Shown here one piece after another: positions 8,832 to 59,484 of a stretch of DNA of 64,000 bases. Made by a program: the position numbers and the translations under genes. The stretch's first letter is position 1, and every line of letters begins with the position of its first letter. A model generated the notes under the pieces. It saw only the letters and a program-made list of their open reading frames with translations. It had not been told where the DNA came from and made no database searches. The DNA is from Escherichia coli (GTDB lineage Bacteria > Pseudomonadota > Gammaproteobacteria > Enterobacterales > Enterobacteriaceae), in assembly GCF_017348835.2 (NCBI RefSeq), contig NZ_CP071375.1; one strand, given 5' to 3'.

Positions 8832-10166
8832 TCATTCCTTGAAATCGTTTGCATCCAGCTCGTGTCGGGAAAGCAGTTTATAAAATTCTGTCCGGTTGCG
8901 CCCCGCCATTCTCGCCGCGTGGGTGACGTTGCCTTTGGTAATTTGCAGCAGCTTACGCAAATAGTTGAGTTCAAACTGATTACGTGCCTCAACAAAGGTT
9001 GGCAGCGCCGTATTTTCGCCCTCCAGCGCCTGCTCTACTAATGCATCACTAATCACCGGAGATGAGGTCAGCGCCACGCACTGTTCAATCACGTTGACCA
9101 ACTGGCGCACATTACCCGGCCAGCTCGCGGTCATCAGGCGTTTCATTGCATCGGTGGAGAACGCGCGGACAAACGGTTTATGTCGCTCTGCCGCCTGGCG
9201 CAACAGGTGATTTGCCAGTAGCGGAATGTCTTCTGTGCGCTCTGCCAGAGCCGGAATTTTCAGGCTGACAACGTTAAGGCGGTAATAGAGATCTTCACGG
9301 AATTCCCCGCGCGCCATCGCTTTTGGCAGGTCGCGGTGAGTGGCGGAAATAATCCGCACGTCGATATCAATATCGCGGTTACTGCCCAGCGGGCGCACTT
9401 TACGCTCCTGCAACACGCGCAGCAGTTTGACCTGCAACGGTGCGGGCATATCGCCAATCTCATCGAGAAATAGCGTACCGCCTTCCGCCGCCTGGAATAA
9501 ACCTTCGCGATTGCTGACAGCGCCAGTAAACGCGCCACGCGCATGACCAAACAGCTCCGACTCCAGCAATTGCTCGGGCAATGCGCCACAGTTAATAGCA
9601 ATAAATGGTTTGCTATTGCGCGGGCTGGCGTTGTGGATAGCCTGGGCGAAAATCTCTTTCCCGGTGCCGCTCTGACCGTTAATCAAAACGCTAACGTCTG
9701 ATTGCGCCACCAGCCGCGCCTGTTCCAGCAAACGCAGCATCAGCGGGCTGCGGGTGACAATCGCCTCGCGCCAGCGTTCGTCGGTGGCTGGCGCGGATTG
9801 TTCCAGCGCATCATCAATTGCCTGATATAGCGCGTCTTTATCAACAGGCTTGGTGAGGAAACTAAAAACGCCCTGCTGTGTTGCAGCAACGGCATCGGGA
9901 ATAGAACCATGCGCGGTAAGAATAATTACCGGCATTCCCGGCTGCACTTTCTGGATTTCAGCAAACAGCTGCATACCGTCCATTTCATCCATCCGCAGGT
10001 CGCTGATGACTAAATCTACTTTTTCGCGATTCAGTACCCGTAATCCTTCAGCGCCACTTTCCGCCGTGACCACGCTGTAGCCTTCGCTGGTCAGGCGCAG
10101 GCCAAGCAGTTTCAGCAATCCCGGATCGTCATCGACCAATAATAAATGCGCAGGTTTATGGCTCAT
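8832..10166 (-). CDS. glrR: Sigma54-dependent response regulator GlrR (YfhA)
   Basis: Receiver domain ([11 protein letters not shown]...), AAA+ sigma54-activation domain (GESGTGKE, GAFTGA) and C-terminal HTH; start trimmed to [10 protein letters not shown]. Confidence 0.93.
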
Positions 10167-10869
10167 CAGGAGTGACCTCATGGGTGGATGGCGCGGGCTT
10201 TTCACCCTCGTGCGGCGTATCCGGCGAGAAATTTCCAGCCGGTTTGCGGGTCGAGAGCTGGCGTTCAATATCGGTCAGGTTTTCCAGCTTGCGGGTGGTG
10301 AGTTCCAGTTGCTGCTGTAGAACGTGATGTTGCTGGCGCAAAGTATCCAGCTCGCTGTCACTGGACTGCTGGAGTTTGCTGTAGCGTTGGCGCTCTTCCG
10401 CCAGTTGCAGTTGCAGCGCCTGACCGTCGCGCCAGAGTTGATACAGAGGGCGAACCTGTGCCGGGATCTCGGTACTTAACGCTTCAATACGCGCGACCAG
10501 CTGGCGGCGCTCATACGGCGTAATTTTGGCGTCGGCGAGCAAAATCCCTTGCTTAAAGGTATTTTGCCAGCTGCCGTCGTCATATTGGCGGGCTTGCTGA
10601 CGCGACTGCGCAGGCATTAAACGATCAGCACAATCCATCGCCCGCAGCCAGTAAAGCGGATTGGTTTCGGTTGATTTACCTTGCAGCGCCCAGATGTCGC
10701 TACATTCAGTAGAAAGATAGTCAGCCAGTTGATAAACCGGAATTTTTTCTTCTGCTGGCGTATCAATGGCTGGCTTATTGTGATTCTGCACGCAACCCAG
10801 CAATGCCAGACATGGCAGCCCTGCCAGCCACAGCCGTCGGGGCAATAATCGTTGAAAAATGTGTCGCAT
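10156..10869 (-). CDS. qseG: Lipoprotein QseG/YfhG
   Basis: MRHIFQRLLPRRLWLAGLPCLALLGCVQ lipobox; stop overlaps the glrR start by 11 nt. Confidence 0.9.
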   Translation of the reverse strand: MRHIFQRLLPRRLWLAGLPCLALLGCVQNHNKPAIDTPAEEKIPVYQLADYLSTECSDIWALQGKSTETNPLYWLRAMDCADRLMPAQSRQQARQYDDGSWQNTFKQGILLADAKITPYERRQLVARIEALSTEIPAQVRPLYQLWRDGQALQLQLAEERQRYSKLQQSSDSELDTLRQQHHVLQQQLELTTRKLENLTDIERQLSTRKPAGNFSPDTPHEGEKPAPSTHEVTPDEP

Positions 10870-11033
10870 ATTCACCAGACTTAAAGCCTATCCCAGTGGG
10901 CGTAATTGTTGCAGACAGTCTGGACATGGACAGCGCGGAGAAACCGGAGCGTACATGTCGTACGTGAGGATTTCGAGCACTGCCCGGGGCCGAACTGACA
11001 AATAAAATAGCCTGATGGGATAGGCTGTTAGCA

Positions 11034-12461
11034 TTATTTCGTGTTTTTCGACGACGGTAATTCAATGCGGAAACAAACGTCTTGCCCGCTCTCGTCGACC
11101 AGATACAGTTCCCCTTGCATACGGCGAATACAATCCCTGGCAATGCTTAATCCCAGACCGCTGCCCTTCACCGCCCCTTTTCGCTGGTGGCTTCCCTGAA
11201 AAAAGGGTTCGAAGATCATGGCGCGTTCCTCTTGCGGAATGGGCGTGCCTGTATTGATGACATCAATATAAACCCGCGCACCATGTAAACTGCTGCGAAG
11301 GCAAATGTTACCGGATTCAGCCCCGTAGTGCACCGCATTGGAGTAAAGATTATCCAGTACGCTCATCAGCAGCATTGGCTCCGCCAGGCAAGCTGTTGCT
11401 TTGAGATCGACGTCGGTATGCATCATTTTAGCCCGTGCGGGCAGGCTATGAGCAGAAACCACTGTCTCCACCAGCGGTGCTAATTCAACATTCTCCAGTT
11501 CCACCGCACTGTCCGCCTGTTTACGGTTGTAATCAAGCAGTTGTTCGATCAGTTTTTGCAAATTGCGGCTGCTGCTATCAAGAATGCTCACCACCTCTTT
11601 TTGCTCTGGCGTAAGCGGCCCGACAACCTGATCAGCCAGTAATTCAGTGCCCTCGCGCATACTCGCCAGTGGCGTTTTTAATTCATGAGATAAATGTCTT
11701 AAAAATTGATGGCGTTGGGATTCCAGCCATGACAGGCGCTCACTTAACCAAAGAATACGTTGCCCAACCGAGCGTAACTCGCTCGGTCCACTGAACGAAA
11801 CGCTATTGCCCAGAGAACGCCCTTCCCCCAACCGGTTGATCATCCTCTCGATATTTTTCACCGGACCAATAATCATACGCGTGAAAAGCAGTACCATTAC
11901 CAGACTCACCAGAAATAGCACCAGCGATTGCCAACCAAAATATTGCCCACGTTCGGCGATTTCACGCTGAAGTTGCTGCCCACGAGAGAACACCACTGTG
12001 CGCGTGGCCTGCACCATTTCGGTATTGGCACTGGCAAAGGCTTCAAGACGCGCGGCGGCAGCAGCATCGGGACCACTGTTGTTGCACTGAAGTTGGGCCA
12101 GATTGTTCAAGTCCTGACGCAATGCCTGGTAAAGTTTATCGTCTGGCAGTACGCCTGCGTGGGCATCGAGCATTTCGCTGTAACGCTTGCGCTGGCTTTG
12201 ATAAACCTTCGCAAGCGTAGGGTCGTCCAGCACGCAATACTGACGGTAGCTACGCTCCATCTCCAGCGCCGCGTTGGTCATCGCTTCACTGCGCCGGGCA
12301 TCGATAAGCGTAGTGCGGTTGACCAGCGCCGCCTGGTCGCTAAGCGCATTCAGGCTTTGCCAGGCTTGCCATGCCAGCACCAACAGGGGTAGCAGAATCA
12401 GCAAAAATGCCAGCATTACCAGTTGTCGTAATGAGCGGGGAAAAACGGGCCAGCGTTTCAA
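11034..12461 (-). CDS. glrK: Sensor histidine kinase GlrK (YfhK/QseE)
   Basis: HAMP and HisKA (HELKTPL) plus HATPase motifs; N-terminus MKRWPVFPRSL requires a TTG start at 12461. Confidence 0.88.
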   Translation of the reverse strand: MKRWPVFPRSLRQLVMLAFLLILLPLLVLAWQAWQSLNALSDQAALVNRTTLIDARRSEAMTNAALEMERSYRQYCVLDDPTLAKVYQSQRKRYSEMLDAHAGVLPDDKLYQALRQDLNNLAQLQCNNSGPDAAAAARLEAFASANTEMVQATRTVVFSRGQQLQREIAERGQYFGWQSLVLFLVSLVMVLLFTRMIIGPVKNIERMINRLGEGRSLGNSVSFSGPSELRSVGQRILWLSERLSWLESQRHQFLRHLSHELKTPLASMREGTELLADQVVGPLTPEQKEVVSILDSSSRNLQKLIEQLLDYNRKQADSAVELENVELAPLVETVVSAHSLPARAKMMHTDVDLKATACLAEPMLLMSVLDNLYSNAVHYGAESGNICLRSSLHGARVYIDVINTGTPIPQEERAMIFEPFFQGSHQRKGAVKGSGLGLSIARDCIRRMQGELYLVDESGQDVCFRIELPSSKNTK

Positions 12462-12517
12462 GGTGTTACTCTCGTCAGACGCGAATAGCCTGATGCTAAC
12501 CGAGGGGAAGTTCAGAT

Positions 12518-12703
12518 ACAACAAAGCCGGGAATTACCCGGCTTTGTTATGGAATAAGGCGGTGCCTAACTCGACGTTTCGCCCGATGGTTGATATAGCT
12601 ACGCTGATATCAGAAGTTGGACGGCAGGCACCTTGTTGTGCGTCATTCGAATTTTATGTAGCACGTCCCGAAGGGGCTGACATAAGTCGGTGAATGAGCC
12701 ACT
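12518..12703 (-). ncRNA. glmY: GlmY small RNA
   Basis: Reverse strand reads AGTGGCTCATTCACCGACTTATGTCAGCCCCTTCGGGACGTGC... ending in terminator AAAGCCGGGTAATTCCCGGCTTTGTTGT; ends approximate. Confidence 0.85.
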
Positions 12704-16000: not shown

Positions 16001-16924
16001 CGCGCCCGGCCACGGAGAAATCGCCGTCGGGTGGTTGTGAGTTTCGACTTTCATCAGAATATGCGCCGGTTCCTGATGGAAATCGTAGCGGCCCGTTTCG
16101 TGGTCAGCAAAGTAGCGGCCCACTTCAGAACCTTCCATTACGGCGGCGTTATCTTTATAAGCAGAGAGAACGTGATCTGGCGTGGTTTCGAAAGTATTTT
16201 TGATCATCCTGAACAGCGATTTCGGCTGCTGTTCACCGTCGATAATCCAGTCGGCATTAAAAATTTTGTGGCGGCAGTGCTCAGAGTTCGCCTGAGCGAA
16301 CATATACAGCTCGATGTCGTTCGGGTTACGACCAAGCTTTGTGAAAGCATCCTGCAGATAGTCAATTTCATCTTCCGCCAGAGCCAGGCCAAGACGCAGG
16401 TTAGCGTCGATCAGCGCCTGACGGCCCTGCCCCAGCAAATCAACGCTGGTAACCGGAGTCGGTTGATGGTGGGCAAACAACTGCTCTGCATCATCTAACG
16501 CAAAAAAGACCGTTTCCATCATGCGGTCGTGCAGTTCAGCGGTAACCTGCTGCCATTGTTCATTGGTCAGCGTACCGGCTTCTATATAGTAAGCAACGCC
16601 GCGCTCAAGGCGGTTTACCTGTTGTAGCCCGCAGTTATGGGCAATATCGGTCGCTTTCGAAGACCAGGGAGAGATGGTGCCAGGACGCGGGGTCACCAGC
16701 AGGAGTTTGCCTTGCGGGGCGTGGCTGGCGAGTGCCGGGCCATATTTCAGCAGGCGTTCAAGTTGTGCGTGCTCATCATCGTTTAACGGCGCATTGAGGT
16801 CAGCAAAATGGACATACTCGGCGTAAATATTGTGAACCGGGAGCCTGGCAGCCTGAAAACGTGCCAGCAGTTTGTTGATTCGGAATGCCGACAATGCAGG
16901 CGAACCACGCAGAATTTCCATCAT
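13037..16924 (-). CDS. purL: Phosphoribosylformylglycinamidine synthase
   Basis: 1295 aa, [23 protein letters not shown]..., C-terminal glutaminase domain. Confidence 0.97.
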
Positions 16925-17000
16925 AAGTCTCTCGTCTTCTAAGCTTTCGGTGTACCCAAGGGGGGGAAACGGGCGTCATTATAAAGAATCTGATGCGCTG

Positions 17001-17016
17001 ACGAAACCGTTTGCGT
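17001..17016. promoter_or_regulatory. PurR operator in purL control region
   Basis: ACGAAACCGTTTGCGT palindrome matching the PurR box. Confidence 0.6.
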
Positions 17017-17181
17017 GGAAATAAAATCACCATCGTGAATTAGCAACGCGTGCCGCCAATGGCTGTAATAAGTTGCCATCTGGCGCAGGTTTACGCAAAA
17101 TGCCGCTCATTTATGAGTAAACCTTTCACTATTATTACGTTTTTTCAAGCTGGGACGCGCACGACACAGAGAATTAACTAA

Positions 17182-19283
<2,102 letters not shown>

Positions 19284-19295
19284 CTATGCTTTACT

Positions 19296-19931
19296 CTATT
19301 CCAGTTGCTGAAGTTCACCGCGCGGGGTTACTCGCCAACGATGCTGACAGAAATAAAGCAGCGGATTGTCCTGATTACTGTCGCTATAGCCACTGTACAG
19401 CCGCAGCGGCGTGCCGATTTTGCGCTCCAGTTGTGCGACCTTTTCATGTCCCAGACAACGCATCGTCAATACCCAACCACCATAGCCACGCTGAATTTGG
19501 CTGGCGATAAGATTAACCCGCGGCAGCCAGGGCGTATCGAAATAAACCGCTTCAACCAGCGGCTGCGGAGAGCCGGTAATCAACCAGATATCAGCATCGG
19601 AACTTAACAGGTAGGTGGTTAATCGCTCCTGAACCAGCGGAAAGGCGGTAACATTGTCACGAAACCAGCGTACGAAATCGGCCTGCAACGCCTGCAAACG
19701 CGCTTCATTGTGACCAAAAGTGCATCCCCACAGAAGCAGACTCATCGGCCAGCGTGCCGCACGACCTTTTATCAATAACGCAATGGCTATAATCGGCAAC
19801 AACGGCAGGACAAGTAACGCATTCAGCGGTTGGCGACGCAGTAAATAGCGCAGAAAACTGCCGAACATATCCTGCTGATGCAATGTTCCATCTAAGTCAA
19901 AAAACACCACACGACGCTCGTGAGTTGCCAA
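19296..19931 (-). CDS. pgpC: Phosphatidylglycerophosphatase C (HAD family)
   Basis: 211 aa, HAD motif VVFFDLDGTL. Confidence 0.88.
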   Translation of the reverse strand: MATHERRVVFFDLDGTLHQQDMFGSFLRYLLRRQPLNALLVLPLLPIIAIALLIKGRAARWPMSLLLWGCTFGHNEARLQALQADFVRWFRDNVTAFPLVQERLTTYLLSSDADIWLITGSPQPLVEAVYFDTPWLPRVNLIASQIQRGYGGWVLTMRCLGHEKVAQLERKIGTPLRLYSGYSDSNQDNPLLYFCQHRWRVTPRGELQQLE

Positions 19932-21899: not shown

Positions 21900-21977
21900 T
21901 CGTTGGAATCGTGTGCTGCACAAAATTAAAGTTAAAAAGTAAAACCCCCGTTCCTTACCAGTTCGGGGGTTTTACTT
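21900..21977 (+). ncRNA. ohsC: OhsC antisense sRNA (antitoxin of shoB), approximate
   Basis: Placement inferred from CATAAT -10 at 21888-21893, the 19-nt repeat at 21903-21921 and the terminator at 21945-21973; ends not verified. Confidence 0.4.
21941..21975. terminator. Bidirectional rho-independent terminator (acpS / ohsC)
   Basis: AAAACCCCCG-loop-CGGGGGTTTT with A/T runs on both sides. Confidence 0.7.
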
Positions 21978-21999
21978 TATAAAGAGAACGGTATTATTT

Positions 22000-23862: not shown

Positions 23863-25475
<1,613 letters not shown>

Positions 25476-25717
25476 TCAGCACACGAAACAGACCTGATAT
25501 ACATGGCTCTGCTAACTGCTTCGCTGCAGTTTCAGTTTAGCGGTATATGGGAACCAACGCTGTTTCGTGTGCCGTGGCAACCTGGAGGTGCCAACCTTAA
25601 ACTTCGGGGGAATATTCTATACACAACGACGGGGGATGTCGTTAGCCACGGGAGATTTATCTCATAAATAATTCACGTTGTCGCCGTAACGGCGACAACG
25701 TGAACGAAGATGAGCTA

Positions 25718-26707: not shown

Positions 26708-28507
<1,800 letters not shown>

Positions 28508-28704
28508 AAAGTATGATTATTGTGCCTTAATGCCCGGTTAACCAGGCTTTTAGAAGTCGCTGTTCTGAGCTTAACGTCTGTATTAATAGAAACGCCGCAT
28601 TCTACACTACAACATTGAGGCGAGGAAATGTTCATACCGTATGGATTGTGGTATCTGGAAACGTCCTCGCATTTGTTATGCAAAATGCAACAAAGCCAGT
28701 GAAA

Positions 28705-29184
28705 TCACTGGCTCGCGTCTTCCGAAGATGTTTCAAATCGCACAAGGCCAGGCGGCAATGCCACGCTTAAGATGATCGGTTGCCATTCTGCCCGGGCAGC
28801 AAACTTACGCGAGTAGCCACGCGCAATCAGGAACCCGCCAATACCGCCGAGGACCGCACCACATAATGCTGCGACGTCAGAAGCAAAGAGTAGCTGAAAT
28901 AGCGAAGCGATGAGGAATAATCCCACCAGCGGCGACATATAAACCAGTAATGCGGAGCTAAGCAGGCTGCCTTCGGCGATCCCTAATTCCACTTTTTGCC
29001 CCGGCACTAACGGCTCATCACAGGGTACGACAATGGTATGCGTGGTTTGCGGGCCAAGTTTATTCAACACGCGGCTACCGCAACCGGCGCGTGAAGCGCA
29101 GCTGCTGCATGAGGCTTTAACATCACAACTGACCAGCGCCTGCCCGTTTTGCCAGGAGACGACGGTAGCCCACTCTTTGATCAT
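28705..29184 (-). CDS. rseC: SoxR-reducing / sigma-E regulatory protein RseC
   Basis: 159 aa, position in rpoE-rseABC operon. Confidence 0.9.
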   Translation of the reverse strand: MIKEWATVVSWQNGQALVSCDVKASCSSCASRAGCGSRVLNKLGPQTTHTIVVPCDEPLVPGQKVELGIAEGSLLSSALLVYMSPLVGLFLIASLFQLLFASDVAALCGAVLGGIGGFLIARGYSRKFAARAEWQPIILSVALPPGLVRFETSSEDASQ

Positions 29185-30137
29185 TGCGCTGCCCCGAACT
29201 TAATATTCTCGGCAATGCGTTTCGCCGTTTGCGGCGGCAGTTCACCGACAATGGTGATTTCGGCGTTATCACGTACGCTTGTACTGACGGTTCTGCGTCC
29301 GGTGCGCAACATCTGATCGGTGCTCGATGGCGTAGCGCGGTTAACGTTTACCGAGAAGCTGAATAATCCGTCGGAATAGAGACGTGATTCGATAGGCATG
29401 TTGTCCATCGTCGGTAGCGGACGTCGACTACTGGAAACTTCGCTAAAACCCTGTGGTAACCAGGTTGGCGTCCAGCTGAATTTAGCTTTTTCACCTACAG
29501 GAACAGAAAGCAACGGCGGCAAATTTGCCTTCGCCAGCGTCTGCATACTGCTGCTGATATCCTGATTGACGTTAAAAGCAATCACGCGAAATTGTTCCAG
29601 CGTTTCACCATCGCGATCAAGGAGATCAACCCTCATCGGTAATTTCGATTCGGTGTCCATCCACACGATGTAGCTGTAGCGTGTACCATCTCGGGCAACC
29701 ACGCGAATGACTTCGCAAAGACGATCAGCAATACGCGTGCGCCCGACGGAGATAAAGTCGTAGTAAGGAGAAAGGCGTTTGAAATCGGTATAGATGAGCG
29801 ATGGCAGAGAATCAACAATGTAATCGCCATTAAGCGTGAACGGTTCAAGTCCCGGTTCAAAATAGCTGATTTCATTGCCGCGCTGTACCACTTCCCGGCG
29901 CGGGCCATCCATTTGCAACAATTGTGCAAGAGGACGGTTATCGAGGCGTGCATGTCGATAACGCAGAGACTCAACACCCTGTTTATTGATGCTGATGAAT
30001 GACAGCTCGTAATTCAGTGACTGACTGGCCAGGTTCATCTGCTGTAATAACGCCCCGGACGCGGGAGTGGCCGAGGCGTTAGCAGAGAATAACAGGCTAC
30101 CTGTCACTAATGACATGGCAAACCAAAGTTGCTTCAT
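29181..30137 (-). CDS. rseB: Sigma-E regulatory protein RseB
   Basis: 318 aa periplasmic protein with signal peptide; start overlaps rseA stop. Confidence 0.93.
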   Translation of the reverse strand: MKQLWFAMSLVTGSLLFSANASATPASGALLQQMNLASQSLNYELSFISINKQGVESLRYRHARLDNRPLAQLLQMDGPRREVVQRGNEISYFEPGLEPFTLNGDYIVDSLPSLIYTDFKRLSPYYDFISVGRTRIADRLCEVIRVVARDGTRYSYIVWMDTESKLPMRVDLLDRDGETLEQFRVIAFNVNQDISSSMQTLAKANLPPLLSVPVGEKAKFSWTPTWLPQGFSEVSSSRRPLPTMDNMPIESRLYSDGLFSFSVNVNRATPSSTDQMLRTGRRTVSTSVRDNAEITIVGELPPQTAKRIAENIKFGAAQ

Positions 30138-30790
30138 TACTGCGATTGCGTTCCTAAAGTTTGAATTCCTGGCACCTGTACAGCGGCTTGCTGGGTTTGC
30201 GCCTGCTCAAACTGAAGCTGTTCAGAGTGGAGTCGGCGTTGCAGTTCGTAATCCTGCAACATTGCATTAATGCGACGACGCTGCTCCTGTACCTGCTGCT
30301 GTTGACCATTATTTGCGGTCGCTTCAGAAGGTACTCCCAGGCTAACCGGGCTGGCTTTACCCATCATCGGCAGTGTATTAAATACCGGCGTTTCGGGCTG
30401 CTGGGACGTTTCTTCAGATTGTCCATTATAGTGCTGGACGCCAACGATAACTGCAAGCGATACGCATGCGGCTACGCCCATTTGGGTAAGCTGTGCCGCC
30501 CACGGACGTACTTTCTGCCAGAATGGCATTTTCTGCCATTGATGCGGCGCAGGCTGGGCTTCCGGGATCAATGTCGCCGGTTGACGTACTGGCTCTTCTT
30601 CAATGGCGGCCATCACGCGTGAAGAGATATCGAAATGGAGTACCTCGGGAGTATCACCCCGCATTGAGTCACGGATTAAGTGATAGCTTTCCCAGGTTTT
30701 CTGCATTTCTGGGTTATGAGCCAGTTCGTTAAGCAGCTCACTATCCAGCGTTTCGCCATCCATTAAAGCGGAAAGTTGTTCTTTCTGCAT
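30137..30790 (-). CDS. rseA: Anti-sigma-E factor RseA
   Basis: MQKEQLSALMDGETLDSELLNELAHNPEMQ...; start trimmed to ATG at 30790. Confidence 0.93.
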   Translation of the reverse strand: MQKEQLSALMDGETLDSELLNELAHNPEMQKTWESYHLIRDSMRGDTPEVLHFDISSRVMAAIEEEPVRQPATLIPEAQPAPHQWQKMPFWQKVRPWAAQLTQMGVAACVSLAVIVGVQHYNGQSEETSQQPETPVFNTLPMMGKASPVSLGVPSEATANNGQQQQVQEQRRRINAMLQDYELQRRLHSEQLQFEQAQTQQAAVQVPGIQTLGTQSQ

Positions 30791-36632: not shown

Positions 36633-37220
36633 GTGACACCGACCCTTTTAAGTGCTTTTTGGACTTACACCCTGATTACCGCCATGACGCCAGGACCGAA
36701 CAATATTCTCGCCCTTAGCTCAGCCACAACGCACGGATTTCGTCAGAGTACCCGCGTGCTGGCAGGGATGAGTCTGGGATTTTTAATCGTCATGTTGCTG
36801 TGTGCGGGCATTTCGTTTTCACTGGCTGTTATCGACCCGGCAGCTGTGCATCTGTTGAGTTGGGCGGGGGCGGCATATATTGTCTGGCTGGCGTGGAAAA
36901 TCGCTACCAGTCCAACAAAGGAAGACGGGCTTCAGACAAAACCAATCAATTTTTGGGCCAGCTTTGCTTTGCAGTTTGTGAACGTCAAAATCATTTTGTA
37001 CGGTGTTACGGCACTGTCGACATTTGTTCTGCCGCAAACACAGGCGTTAAGCTGGGTAGTTGGCGTCAGTGTTTTGCTGGCGATGATTGGGACGTTTGGC
37101 AATGTGTGCTGGGCGCTGGCGGGGCATCTGTTTCAGCGATTGTTTCGCCAGTATGGTCGCCAGTTAAATATCGTGCTGGCGCTGCTGCTGATCTATTGCG
37201 CGGTACGCATTTTCTATTAA
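36633..37220 (+). CDS. eamB: Cysteine/O-acetylserine exporter (LysE/RhtB family)
   Basis: 195 aa, six hydrophobic segments; GTG start. Confidence 0.88.
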   Translation: MTPTLLSAFWTYTLITAMTPGPNNILALSSATTHGFRQSTRVLAGMSLGFLIVMLLCAGISFSLAVIDPAAVHLLSWAGAAYIVWLAWKIATSPTKEDGLQTKPINFWASFALQFVNVKIILYGVTALSTFVLPQTQALSWVVGVSVLLAMIGTFGNVCWALAGHLFQRLFRQYGRQLNIVLALLLIYCAVRIFY

Positions 37221-45337: not shown

Positions 45338-45661
45338 TTGCGTATTCTTTTTGTCTGTTCGCTATTGTTACTTTCTGGATGCAGCCATATGGCTAACGAT
45401 AGCTGGAGCGGGCAGGATAAAGCTCAACACTTTATCGCCTCGGCGATGCTTTCCGCCGCCGGAAATGAATATTCACAGCATCAGGGGATGAGCCGGGATC
45501 GCAGTGCCATGTTTGGATTGATGTTCTCTGTCAGTTTGGGGGCGTCAAAAGAGCTTTGGGATAGCCGCCCCGAAGGGAGCGGCTGGAGCTGGAAGGATTT
45601 GGCCTGGGATGTCGCCGGTGCAAGCACCGGCTATACCGTCTGGCAACTGACCCGTCACTAA
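45338..45661 (+). CDS. yfiM: Lipoprotein YfiM
   Basis: [15 protein letters not shown] lipobox; TTG start 7 nt after GGAGG; overlaps kgtP 3' end by 4 nt. Confidence 0.8.
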
Positions 45662-55440: not shown

Positions 55441-56172
55441 TTATATCAGCCAAATGAAACTTGCCATACGACCGGTGGTCTTGTCGCGACGATAAGAGAA
55501 GAAAGTCTCATTTTCCGTATATGTACAACGGTCGCCGCCGAAAATTTGTTCAACACCAACGCTCGCCAGACGCTGCCGGGCAAGCTGATAAATGTCCGCC
55601 AGATACTTATCACCATGCTGAATGAAAGCTGTACTCGCTTCGGCGTCTACTGCCATAAACGCCTCGCGAACCTCCGCCCCCACTTCAAACGCGCGTGGAC
55701 CAATTGCCGGCCCTAACCAGGCGAGAATATTTTCTGGATTATCAGCAAAACAGGAAACTGTCTCTTCCAGCACGCCTGCGCACAGTCCACGCCAGCCAGC
55801 ATGAGCGGCGGCGACTTCCGTTCCCGCTCGATTGCAAAACAGCACAGGGAGGCAGTCGGCAGTCATCACTGCGCAAACCGTGCCGGGCGTATTGCTATAA
55901 GAGGCATCTGCTCGTTTTGAGGCATAAGGTTCGCCAGTAAGCTTAAGCACATCTTTGCCGTGTACCTGCTCAAGCCAGACCGGTTTAGAAGGCAAATTGC
56001 CCGCAGCAAAAAGTCGCTTGCGATTCTCCTCAACGTGATCCGGGTTATCGCCACAATGGGCACCGAGGTTGAGCGAGTCATACGGGGGCAAGCTCACGCC
56101 GCCGATACGAGTAGAGCTACAGGCCGCAACACCTTTTGGCAGCGGCCACTGCGGAACAATCAGCTTACTCAT
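55441..56172 (-). CDS. yfiH: Purine nucleoside phosphorylase/laccase-domain protein YfiH (PgeF)
   Basis: 243 aa, MSKLIVPQWPLPKGVAACSSTR... Confidence 0.9.
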   Translation of the reverse strand: MSKLIVPQWPLPKGVAACSSTRIGGVSLPPYDSLNLGAHCGDNPDHVEENRKRLFAAGNLPSKPVWLEQVHGKDVLKLTGEPYASKRADASYSNTPGTVCAVMTADCLPVLFCNRAGTEVAAAHAGWRGLCAGVLEETVSCFADNPENILAWLGPAIGPRAFEVGAEVREAFMAVDAEASTAFIQHGDKYLADIYQLARQRLASVGVEQIFGGDRCTYTENETFFSYRRDKTTGRMASFIWLI

Positions 56173-58058: not shown

Positions 58059-59484
58059 TAATGCCAGTCAGTTAAGCAACTGACTGGCTCTTTTTCGGGG
58101 CTGTGGGGTATTTCCAGGGCCTCTCCTTTACCACTCTCGGGAAGGCCCTTTCCCTTCTTGTCGGTAATTTCACAAGTTGTCCCATACTTGCAAGATCGCG
58201 CATCAGCTCCGGTATACGTCCCGGTGAAGCGCCCTGCAATGTCATCAGCATTCTCATCACCATTCCGCATGATTCTGAGAAGCTCAGTTGATTTGGCCAG
58301 TAACCTTTCAGATGTTCCGCCATTTTAATCATCTGATATCTCACCAGATTATAAGCCAGTAAGACACCCCACAGCTCTTGCTCCACAAGCTCAGGCTTTT
58401 TACTTCTCAGCGTCAGCCTGCTCAGTTGCATCGTCTGTTTTATCTCCCTGTATCCCAGTTCGATTTCCCAGCGATGACTGTACAGATCCGCCATTTCTCC
58501 TCCGGGGAAGCGCATGGCGTCCGTCATCGACGTCAGCAGATGGCAGACTTTTCCTTTGCGCGTCACGGTCAGCAGGCGGGCTGTCACCTCATTTCCCAGT
58601 CCCGGCCACTTTTTTCGTGCCTGCGGGCTGGTTTTCAGCTTCACCAGATGATCGCCTTTACCCAGTTTTCTGATCTCTTCATATTGCGCTCCCTTTCTGA
58701 GAGGGATCATCCAGTGGCGGTGTTCTCCCGCCAGGCTCCAGGCATTTAACAATCCCAGTGAGTAATAACCTTTATCCATTAACGTCAGAGTGTTATCGCC
58801 GGTTTGTTCTATAAGTTGCTCAGCAAGCTCATTTTCGCTGTTCTTCATCGTGCCGAAGGCTGCAGCCGTCAGCAGATGGCTGGTCAGTTCCATCTGGCAG
58901 ACCATTTTGACCTGCGGGTAGAGCGCCGGGGTCCCGGCATGTGTCTGGCGAGGGAAGGCTGCATCGTTCTCTGGTGTATCCGGTGTGCGCCAGAACACAC
59001 CATCGATGGCCAGCAGGGTCAGGCCGCACCAGTGCGGATGCGGCGTGGCGTTATGCCAGAGCTGCGCTGTTTTCGTGAACACGCGGCGGACAGCCTCACT
59101 TCCCAGGCGCTGGCGGGCCTGAATAACAGCACTGGGGGCAACGAAGGTGCGATTGCCCGGCAGCATGATGTCCAGGCGATTCACAATCTGGTGAAGAGGT
59201 TCTTTACGCTCAAGCGCCATGCCAACAATACACCAGACCATCATTTCGAGGGGAAGACGGCGCTTGCGTAGCGTTACAGTACCTGATTCGGCAAGGCAAC
59301 GAGAGATGAGTTCGGGGTCGAGGTAATCTCCCAGAGAAGTCAGTGGGTTACGCAGAGAATCGTAACGGGATACCAGATCAAGAGCCTGTCCAATGTGCAT
59401 AAAAAAATCCGGAAACGAGTGAGCGTTTCCGGATTCTTACACAGCCACTGGATCGGTCAACTGATCCTTAACTGATCGGCATTA
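58059..59484 (-). mobile_element. IS4 insertion sequence, complete (1426 bp)
   Basis: Inverted termini TAATGCC...GGCATTA, single 442-aa transposase ORF, flanked by direct repeats CAGCCCTTGAGCTG at 58045-58058 and 59485-59498. Confidence 0.92.
58072..59400 (-). CDS. insG: IS4 transposase (DDE family)
   Basis: 442 aa, [50 protein letters not shown]..., recalled as IS4 InsG. Confidence 0.92.

What the first reader, a model, noticed from the sequence alone, without database searches (positions are those of the whole stretch)
10156..12461. Non-ATG starts and overlap-coupled genes in the glrK-qseG-glrR operon and elsewhere
The expected N-termini of GlrK (12461), TadA (19238), MltF (17182) and YfiM (45338) are reached only with TTG starts, and EamB (36633) with GTG. 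In each case the ATG-initiated six-frame ORF is either longer than the known protein or absent. The qseG stop overlaps the glrR start by 11 nt, and rseA/rseB, era/rnc and rluD/yfiH share 1-4 nt overlaps, consistent with translational coupling. Automated ATG-only start calling would mis-annotate all of these.
Basis: partly seen in the sequence, partly recalled or inferred. Interest (0 to 1): 0.15.

Follow-up and report, generated by a model that had tools for sequence, protein, structure and literature searches.

The report
Known non-ATG gene starts in E. coli
The window is an ordinary, well-annotated stretch of the Escherichia coli chromosome in which several genes really do begin with the weak start codons TTG or GTG and several neighbouring genes overlap by a few bases; all of this is already in the curated annotation.

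Summary
The window is E. coli chromosome, from yphF to aroF, and differs from strain PE164 at 13 positions. They match both RefSeq and the curated K-12 annotation: glrK, mltF, tadA and yfiM start with TTG, and eamB with GTG. The overlaps are qseG/glrR 11 nt, rseA/rseB 1 nt, rnc/era 4 nt and rluD/yfiH 4 nt.

Two corrections:
- A sixth non-ATG gene was missed: pgpC/yfhB, TTG at 19931.
- The claim that the ATG-initiated ORF is "longer or absent" holds only for tadA. The other four named genes (and pgpC) have shorter in-frame ATG forms.

Evidence for the starts:
- In 66-79 Enterobacteriaceae loci per gene the homologous codon is TTG or GTG, never ATG, for glrK, mltF, tadA and pgpC. Codon periodicity begins there.
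- Published tetracycline ribosome profiling supports the tadA and yfiM TTG starts, and an N-terminal peptide also supports tadA.
- The qseE/glrK transcript starts 25 nt upstream of the TTG.
- The qseG/glrR overlap is conserved, mostly as ATGA; the 11-nt form is specific to Escherichia.

Translational coupling is plausible but was not tested.

Side observations:
- An almost invariant 43-nt block surrounds the mltF TTG.
- A 152-nt dispersed repeat sits between glrK and qseG.
- Four TTG-start genes cluster locally.

Verdict: correct, ordinary and already known.

The parts
11034..12461 (-). glrK/qseE coding sequence (475 aa), starting with TTG at 12461-12459
   Evidence: RefSeq and K-12 annotation. 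The homologous codon is TTG in 73 and GTG in 6 of 79 loci, never ATG. Codon periodicity begins at this codon.
12469..12473 (-). Weak SD-like GAGAG, 8-12 nt upstream of the glrK TTG
   Evidence: Duplex energy with the anti-SD is -3.4 kcal/mol. The 'gaGag' motif is conserved in an otherwise divergent leader.
12486..12486 (-). Published sigma-70 transcription start of qseEGF, 25 nt upstream of the start codon
   Evidence: PMC6075780. A homologous start was mapped after the same TTAGCAT element in Klebsiella (PMC3415461 supplement). I placed it on the window by counting; it was not measured here.
12520..12703 (-). glmY small RNA gene. Its terminator contains the upstream in-frame TTGs (12524, 12521) that begin the 496-aa mechanical ORF.
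   Evidence: K-12 annotation mapped by offset. Rfam GlmY_tke1 hit at 12556-12703, 147 bits. Sequence read.
10156..10869 (-). qseG lipoprotein gene, ATG start
8832..10166 (-). glrR/qseF gene, ATG start. Its first 11 nt (10156-10166) overlap the end of qseG.
   Evidence: SD GAGG inside qseG, -6.3 kcal/mol. The upstream ATG at 10181 is present only in the Escherichia loci (4 of 5) among the 80 compared.
10880..11031 (.). 152-nt dispersed repeat with 16-nt terminal inverted repeats, inserted between glrK and qseG
   Evidence: Inverted repeat found. Median of 5 places per genome in 5425 E. coli genomes. The intergenic distance is 164 nt here against a median of 21 nt in other Enterobacteriaceae.
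17182..18738 (+). mltF (518 aa), TTG start immediately after an in-frame TAA
   Evidence: TTG in 70 of 70 loci. The first in-frame ATG is codon 189.
17166..17208 (+). Nearly invariant nucleotide block (-16 to +27) around the mltF start
   Evidence: The hairpin model is inconclusive.
18735..19238 (-). tadA (167 aa), TTG start. A non-conserved in-frame ATG lies at 19271.
   Evidence: TTG in 52 and GTG in 14 loci. The upstream ATG is absent from more than half of the loci. Ribosome-profiling signal was 47/57/30 at the TTG against 0/0/0 at the ATG, and the N-terminal peptide matches the TTG form (PMC4909307).
   Evidence: TTG in 55 and GTG in 3 loci, plus loci shifted by one codon that also show TTG.
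36633..37220 (+). eamB (195 aa), GTG start with a strong SD and an in-frame stop two codons upstream
   Evidence: GTG in Salmonella, Klebsiella and Yersinia; ATG in Aeromonas at the same codon. 77 of 120 homologues are 195 aa, and Met18 is Leu in most of them.
45338..45661 (+). yfiM (107 aa lipoprotein), TTG start with SD GGAGG
   Evidence: The lipobox Cys15 lies before the first ATG, which is codon 18. The homologous codon is GTG or ATG in other genera. Ribosome-profiling signal is at the TTG and none at the old ATG.
30137..30137 (-). rseA/rseB 1-nt overlap (TAATG)
   Evidence: coordinates.
24765..24768 (-). rnc/era 4-nt overlap (ATGA)
   Evidence: coordinates.
56169..56172 (-). rluD/yfiH 4-nt overlap
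   Evidence: coordinates.

Best explanation
These are genuine, already annotated E. coli genes whose translation begins at near-cognate start codons read by initiator tRNA. glrK, mltF, tadA, pgpC and yfiM use TTG; eamB uses GTG.

For glrK, mltF, tadA and pgpC the weak start class has been kept throughout Enterobacteriaceae. The most likely reason is that it holds synthesis of these low-abundance proteins down. That step is inferred.

In the glrK-qseG-glrR operon the transcript starts 25 nt before the glrK TTG. glrR starts inside the end of qseG, so ribosomes finishing qseG can reinitiate on glrR. This coupling is also inferred. The stop/start overlap is the ordinary ATGA type in most relatives and has drifted to 11 nt in Escherichia.
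For: - Annotation: RefSeq and curated K-12 give identical starts.
- Start-codon conservation in 66-79 loci per gene: glrK TTG 73 / GTG 6; mltF TTG 70/70; tadA TTG 52 / GTG 14; pgpC TTG 55 / GTG 3. None has ATG.
- Periodicity: conservation with three-base periodicity starts at these codons and is absent upstream.
- Switching: at least 13 TTG<->GTG switches on gene trees and none to ATG.
- yfiM and eamB: the homologous codons are start codons (ATG, GTG) in other genera. The N-terminal signal peptide with lipobox (YfiM) and the first transmembrane segment (EamB) need the non-ATG start.
- Experiment: PMC4909307 Table S2 supports the tadA and yfiM TTG starts.
- Transcript and abundance: the qseE transcription start is at -25, and QseE was undetectable in a global proteomics study cited by PMC6075780, which also cites 11 QseG and 36 QseF molecules per cell.
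- Overlap: a qseG/glrR stop-start overlap is scored in all 80 loci, as ATGA in 53. Four-base co-directional overlaps are common and generally regarded as coupled (PMC2716372).
Against: - I found no direct N-terminal or initiation-site data for GlrK, MltF, PgpC or EamB.
- The SD sequences of glrK (-3.4 kcal/mol) and mltF (-2.9 kcal/mol, poorly spaced) are weak.
- An in-vitro initiation map lists an extra in-frame TTG site inside mltF at +132, so additional minor products are possible.
- Selection for weak starts is inferred from substitution patterns on approximate gene trees.
- Coupling was not tested.
Confidence: 0.93

Rival explanations
1. The ATG-initiated forms are the real or co-equal products: TadA of 178 aa from 19271; GlrK from Met16; YfiM and EamB from codon 18. 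The TTG/GTG starts would then be annotation conventions.
For: In-frame ATGs exist at these places. The 2006 K-12 annotation used the ATGs for tadA and yfiM. Many automated calls give the truncated EamB (P0125) and YfiM (P0110). PMC4909307 reports that some E. coli genes have dual initiation sites.
Against: - The tadA ATG is absent from more than half of the loci, and the stretch between it and the TTG shows no coding periodicity.
- Ribosome-profiling signal at the old tadA and yfiM ATGs was 0/0/0.
- GlrK Met16, the PgpC ATG and EamB Met18 are not universally conserved, whereas residues 2-15 are conserved as protein.
- An ATG start in YfiM would remove its signal peptide and lipobox cysteine.
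Confidence: 0.04
2. The invariance of the mltF TTG reflects a specific regulatory element rather than only low-expression tuning. This would be an RNA hairpin, or an operator bound by a protein or small RNA, covering -16 to +27 and controlling initiation.
For: - The 43-nt block is almost invariant in 54 distinct sequences.
- Synonymous codon choice at codons 2-12 is 0.87-1.0 conserved against a gene-wide mean of 0.64, and the first window ranks 1 of 333.
- The E. coli sequence folds into an imperfect AU-rich hairpin spanning essentially this block, with UUG at the apex (z = -1.95).
- 93% of cells are paired, against 25-48% for the slid controls. The terminal pair covaries: GC 30, AU 11, GU 5.
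Against: - RNAalifold predicts no consensus structure.
- The helix is almost all A-U and marginally stable.
- Covariation is confined to one terminal pair.
- The structure was derived from one of the sequences, which inflates the paired percentage.
- There is no Rfam match and no literature on small-RNA control of mltF.
- An unstructured AU-rich region that aids SD-independent initiation would also be conserved.
Confidence: 0.25
3. The local cluster of TTG starts (glrK, mltF, tadA, pgpC within 7.5 kb) reflects shared biology, for example joint sensitivity to initiation-factor-3 discrimination, rather than coincidence.
For: Four of five neighbouring genes use TTG, against about 2-3% genome-wide. 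That gives a nominal expectation of about 0.006-0.02 such runs per genome (my arithmetic from the base rates; note). The cluster is conserved across genera.
Against: The pattern was defined post hoc. The genes lie in three transcription units with unrelated functions. No mechanism links chromosomal position to start-codon choice. The window as a whole is only marginally enriched.
Confidence: 0.08

Closest known systems
Annotated TTG/GTG-initiated genes of E. coli K-12 (curated NC_000913.3 / U00096.3 starts)
   Same: Coordinates, lengths and start codons are identical for all six genes. tadA and yfiM are among the starts revised between 2006 and 2014 and confirmed by tetracycline ribosome profiling.
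   Different: Nothing differs in the starts. This strain differs from K-12 only by point substitutions, a one-codon-longer rseA and an IS4 copy elsewhere in the window.
glmY-qseE(glrK)-qseG-qseF(glrR) locus of Enterobacteriaceae (Goepel et al. 2018, PMC6075780)
   Same: Same gene order, with glmY immediately upstream (Rfam hit), the published sigma-70 start 25 nt before the qseE start codon, and very low QseE abundance.
   Different: In E. coli a 152-nt dispersed repeat lies between glrK and qseG, and the qseG/glrR overlap is 11 nt. Most genera have about 21 nt between the genes and a 4-nt ATGA overlap.
Stop-start overlap (ATGA / TAATG) translational coupling in operons
   Same: The pairs are co-directional, overlap by 1 or 4 nt, and carry the downstream SD inside the upstream gene. 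PMC2716372 describes this class, and its reference list includes Chen et al. 1990 on the rnc operon products RNase III and Era.
   Different: The qseG/glrR overlap here is 11 nt rather than 1 or 4.

Membership tests
Genes initiated at a near-cognate (TTG/GTG) start codon | In-frame TTG or GTG at the codon homologous to the start of orthologues, with coding-type conservation beginning there | tested here: met
   All six genes meet this. Four genes were compared in 66-79 loci each, and two genes in 4 loci each plus 120 protein homologues.
Genes initiated at a near-cognate (TTG/GTG) start codon | SD sequence 5-10 nt upstream | tested here: inconclusive
   The SD is strong for pgpC (-8.6), yfiM (-9.3) and eamB (-9.1), moderate for tadA (-6.1), weak for glrK (-3.4), and effectively absent for mltF (-2.9, about 10 nt away).
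Genes initiated at a near-cognate (TTG/GTG) start codon | Initiating ribosome or N-terminal peptide observed at that codon | not testable with these tools
   Literature only. tadA has ribosome profiling and a peptide; yfiM has weak ribosome profiling (PMC4909307). Nothing was found for glrK, mltF, pgpC or eamB.
QseE/GlrK-QseG-QseF/GlrR three-component operon | Gene order histidine kinase - lipoprotein - sigma-54 response regulator, directly downstream of glmY | tested here: met
   Annotation. GlmY Rfam hit of 147 bits. The synteny holds in 80 loci.
QseE/GlrK-QseG-QseF/GlrR three-component operon | Own sigma-70 promoter between the glmY terminator and the qseE start | not tested
   Taken from PMC6075780 and the Klebsiella transcription-start table. 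I noted the TTAGCAT element by eye only.
Translationally coupled overlapping gene pairs | Same strand, with the stop of the upstream gene overlapping or abutting the start of the downstream gene | tested here: met
   qseG/glrR 11 nt, rseA/rseB 1, rseB/rseC 4, rseD/rpoE 4, rnc/era 4, rluD/yfiH 4, pdxJ/acpS 1. The qseG/glrR overlap is conserved in 80 of 80 loci.
Translationally coupled overlapping gene pairs | Translation of the downstream gene depends on translation of the upstream gene | not testable with these tools
   This needs reporter fusions with premature stops in the upstream gene.

The most novel reading that the evidence does not exclude
The near-invariant 43-nt block around the mltF TTG start is an undescribed translational operator: a hairpin or a binding site for a protein or small RNA. 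More generally, glrK, mltF, tadA and pgpC form a conserved neighbourhood of genes whose weak start codons are actively kept from becoming ATG.
Probability: 0.2. Interest if true: 0.35.

Novelty: already known. Interest (0 to 1): 0.08.

Why it matters
It matters little beyond annotation hygiene. The check shows that the curated starts are right and that weak start codons can be held for long evolutionary periods. It also shows that ATG-preferring gene callers still produce truncated EamB and YfiM entries in public databases. The only lead with research value is the unexplained ultra-conserved initiation region of mltF.

Tried and rejected
- N-terminomics supplement of PMC13245402: none of the six genes appears.
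- INRI-seq supplement (PMC9825163): it lists only alternative sites, mltF +132 TTG and yfhG/qseG -9 CTG. Searches under older gene names or b-numbers found nothing.
- Literature search for the tadA/yfhC start codon: swamped by base-editor papers.
- Search for small-RNA control of mltF: nothing relevant.
- RNAalifold on the mltF initiation region: no consensus structure.
- Rfam at permissive threshold over 16900-17400: no match.
- Search for the published name of the 152-nt repeat (I recall 'RSA'): no paper found, so the name is unverified.
- The 496-aa mechanical glrK ORF from TTG 12524: rejected. Those TTGs are the U-tract of the glmY terminator and lie upstream of the mapped transcription start.
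- The upstream glrR ATG at 10181 (26-nt overlap): rejected. Among the 80 loci it occurs only in Escherichia (4 of 5).
Full report
**Identity of the window.** A 2.6-kb query around the finding matches 5425 of 5426 complete E. coli genomes and is 100% identical to strain PE164. The PE164 record differs from the window at 2 + 11 positions over the whole 64 kb. All 51 complete CDS annotated there translate cleanly in the window. The region runs from yphF to aroF and corresponds to K-12 coordinates minus 2,678,637.

**Check of the observation.** Annotated CDS coordinates were mapped onto the window and the first codon of each was read.
- The named starts are glrK 12461 TTG, mltF 17182 TTG, tadA 19238 TTG, yfiM 45338 TTG and eamB 36633 GTG.
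- The curated K-12 record has the same lengths and the same start codons.
- The totals are 45 ATG, 5 TTG and 1 GTG.
- The named overlaps are exact: qseG/glrR 10156-10166 (11 nt), rseA/rseB 1 nt, rnc/era 4 nt and rluD/yfiH 4 nt.
- Further overlaps exist at rseB/rseC (4), rseD/rpoE (4) and pdxJ/acpS (1). Three convergent pairs also overlap: mltF/tadA 4, yfiM/kgtP 4 and nadB/trmN 16.

One sentence of the finding is inaccurate. Only tadA has a longer ATG-initiated ORF, from ATG 19271, giving 178 aa. The other genes have shorter in-frame ATG forms: glrK codon 16, pgpC codon 22, yfiM codon 18, eamB codon 18 and mltF codon 189.

**Is it more than chance?** The 2006 K-12 annotation had 81 UUG starts (PMC4909307), about 2%. 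Five TTG in 51 genes then has a nominal P of 0.003-0.018. That corresponds to 0.2-1.3 such windows expected per genome, which is unremarkable. The tighter run, with glrK, mltF, tadA and pgpC among five neighbouring genes, is nominally much less likely. It was noticed post hoc, however, and involves three unrelated transcription units. I record it as unexplained rather than as a finding.

**Comparative evidence.** One scan of representative genomes with GlrK returned 80 Enterobacteriaceae loci with 10-kb flanks. These also carry purL, mltF, tadA and pgpC in most cases. The codon homologous to each E. coli start was read.

| Gene | TTG | GTG | ATG |
|---|---|---|---|
| glrK | 73 | 6 | 0 |
| mltF | 70 | 0 | 0 |
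| tadA | 52 | 14 | 0 |
| pgpC | 55 (plus loci shifted by one codon that also show TTG) | 3 | 0 |

- Downstream of these codons, conservation has the 1-2-3 pattern of coding sequence, for example 0.89/0.96/0.62 for glrK. Upstream it is flat at 0.51/0.51/0.58.
- The tadA upstream ATG is missing from more than half of the loci. GlrK Met16 is missing from several.
- On neighbour-joining gene trees the start switched between TTG and GTG at least 13 times and never to ATG. This suggests, by inference, that a weak start is maintained.
- This fits the very low abundance of QseE/GlrK. QseE was undetectable in a global proteomics study that measured 11 QseG and 36 QseF molecules per cell, as cited in PMC6075780.

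**yfiM and eamB.** Protein homologues keep the same N-terminus.
- YfiM: 58 of 120 homologues are 107 aa with the lipobox Cys at position 15.
- EamB: 77 of 120 homologues are 195 aa, and E. coli Met18 is Leu in most of them.
- The DNA of eight relatives shows the homologous codon is a start codon. For EamB it is GTG in Salmonella, Klebsiella and Yersinia and ATG in Aeromonas. For YfiM it is GTG in S. bongori and ATG in Enterobacter, Cronobacter and Pluralibacter.
- Both E. coli starts have strong, well-spaced SD sequences of about -9 kcal/mol.

**Experimental evidence from the literature.** The data come from PMC4909307.
- Table S2 lists tadA with a new TTG start 33 nt downstream of the 2006 ATG. 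Tetracycline-profiling signals were 47/57/30 at the TTG against 0/0/0 at the ATG. An N-terminal peptide matches the new annotation.
- The same table lists yfiM with a TTG 51 nt upstream of the 2006 ATG. Signals were 0/16.7/2.3 against 0/0/0.
It still occurs in automated calls: clusters P0125 (178 aa, 411 members) and P0110 (90 aa, 212 members) begin at the internal ATGs.
- I found no direct initiation or N-terminal data for glrK, mltF, pgpC or eamB.

**The glrK-qseG-glrR operon.**
- glmY lies directly upstream (Rfam hit, 147 bits).
- The in-frame TTGs at 12524 and 12521, which begin the 496-aa mechanical ORF, are the U-tract of the glmY terminator.
[quoted passage not shown] A homologous start was mapped in Klebsiella. 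The primary transcript therefore excludes those upstream TTGs.
- The leader carries only a weak but conserved GAGAG.
- A qseG/glrR stop-start overlap is scored in all 80 loci. It is 4 nt (ATGA) in 53 loci; 1, 8 or 14 nt in 16; apparently longer (58 or 79 nt) in 6; and 11 nt only in the five Escherichia loci.
- The glrR SD (GAGG, -6.3 kcal/mol) lies inside qseG.
- This is the standard architecture associated with translational coupling (PMC2716372). Coupling itself was not tested.

**Comparison with what is known, and novelty.** Everything in the finding is in the curated K-12 record and the cited papers. It is a correct reading of known biology and not a new feature.

**Side observations.**
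- The mltF start sits in a 43-nt block (17166-17208) that is almost invariant across 54 distinct sequences, including synonymous positions. Codons 2-12 are 0.87-1.0 conserved against a gene-wide mean of 0.64.
- The E. coli sequence folds into an AU-rich hairpin spanning essentially that block. RNAalifold finds no consensus structure, and covariation is limited to one terminal pair, so the cause is open.
- The 164-nt glrK-qseG spacer holds a 152-nt element with 16-nt terminal inverted repeats. It occurs about five times per E. coli genome. Most other genera lack it at this site, where the spacer is about 21 nt.

**Verdict.** Novelty is nil and interest is low.

Noticed in passing
window 17166-17208 (+): An almost invariant 43-nt block (CAGAGAATTAACTAA TTG AAA AAA TTA AAG ATT AAT TAT CTG) surrounds the mltF TTG start in 54 distinct Enterobacteriaceae sequences. 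Synonymous sites are frozen. A possible AU-rich hairpin has the start codon at its apex, but there is no consensus fold and almost no covariation.
   Followed up: partly
window 10880-11031: A 152-nt element with 16-nt terminal inverted repeats fills the glrK-qseG spacer. It occurs a median of 5 times (up to 8) per E. coli genome, is unannotated, and is absent at this site from E. albertii and most other genera. It is possibly the 'RSA' intergenic repeat; that name is from memory and unverified.
   Followed up: partly
window 12461, 17182, 19238, 19931: Four of five neighbouring genes (glrK, mltF, tadA, pgpC) use TTG, and this is conserved across genera. TTG and GTG interchange at least 13 times on gene trees, but ATG never appears.
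   Followed up: partly
window 17314 (+), inside mltF: An in-frame TTG at codon 45 is preceded by a strong SD (GGGGAGAG, -8.1 kcal/mol). A published in-vitro initiation map (INRI-seq, PMC9825163 supplement) lists an alternative mltF site at +132. It would give a MltF lacking its signal sequence.
   Followed up: no
window 58072-59400 (-): An IS4 transposase gene is inserted between bamD and raiA in this strain (annotated in PE164).
   Followed up: no
window 28389-29220 (+), 25391-25605 (-), 21902-21978 (+): Rfam gathering-score hits to AsrC (antisense to rseC), the rncO autoregulatory leader of rnc, and the OhsC antitoxin RNA next to shoB. All are known features.
   Followed up: no
window 30137-30790 (-): rseA is 217 codons here, against 216 in K-12 (654 versus 651 nt).
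   Followed up: no
protein clusters P0125 and P0110 (eamB 36684, yfiM 45389 in window terms): Large public clusters of EamB (178 aa, 411 members) and YfiM (90 aa, 212 members) begin at the internal ATG. These are automated mis-calls of the start.
   Followed up: yes
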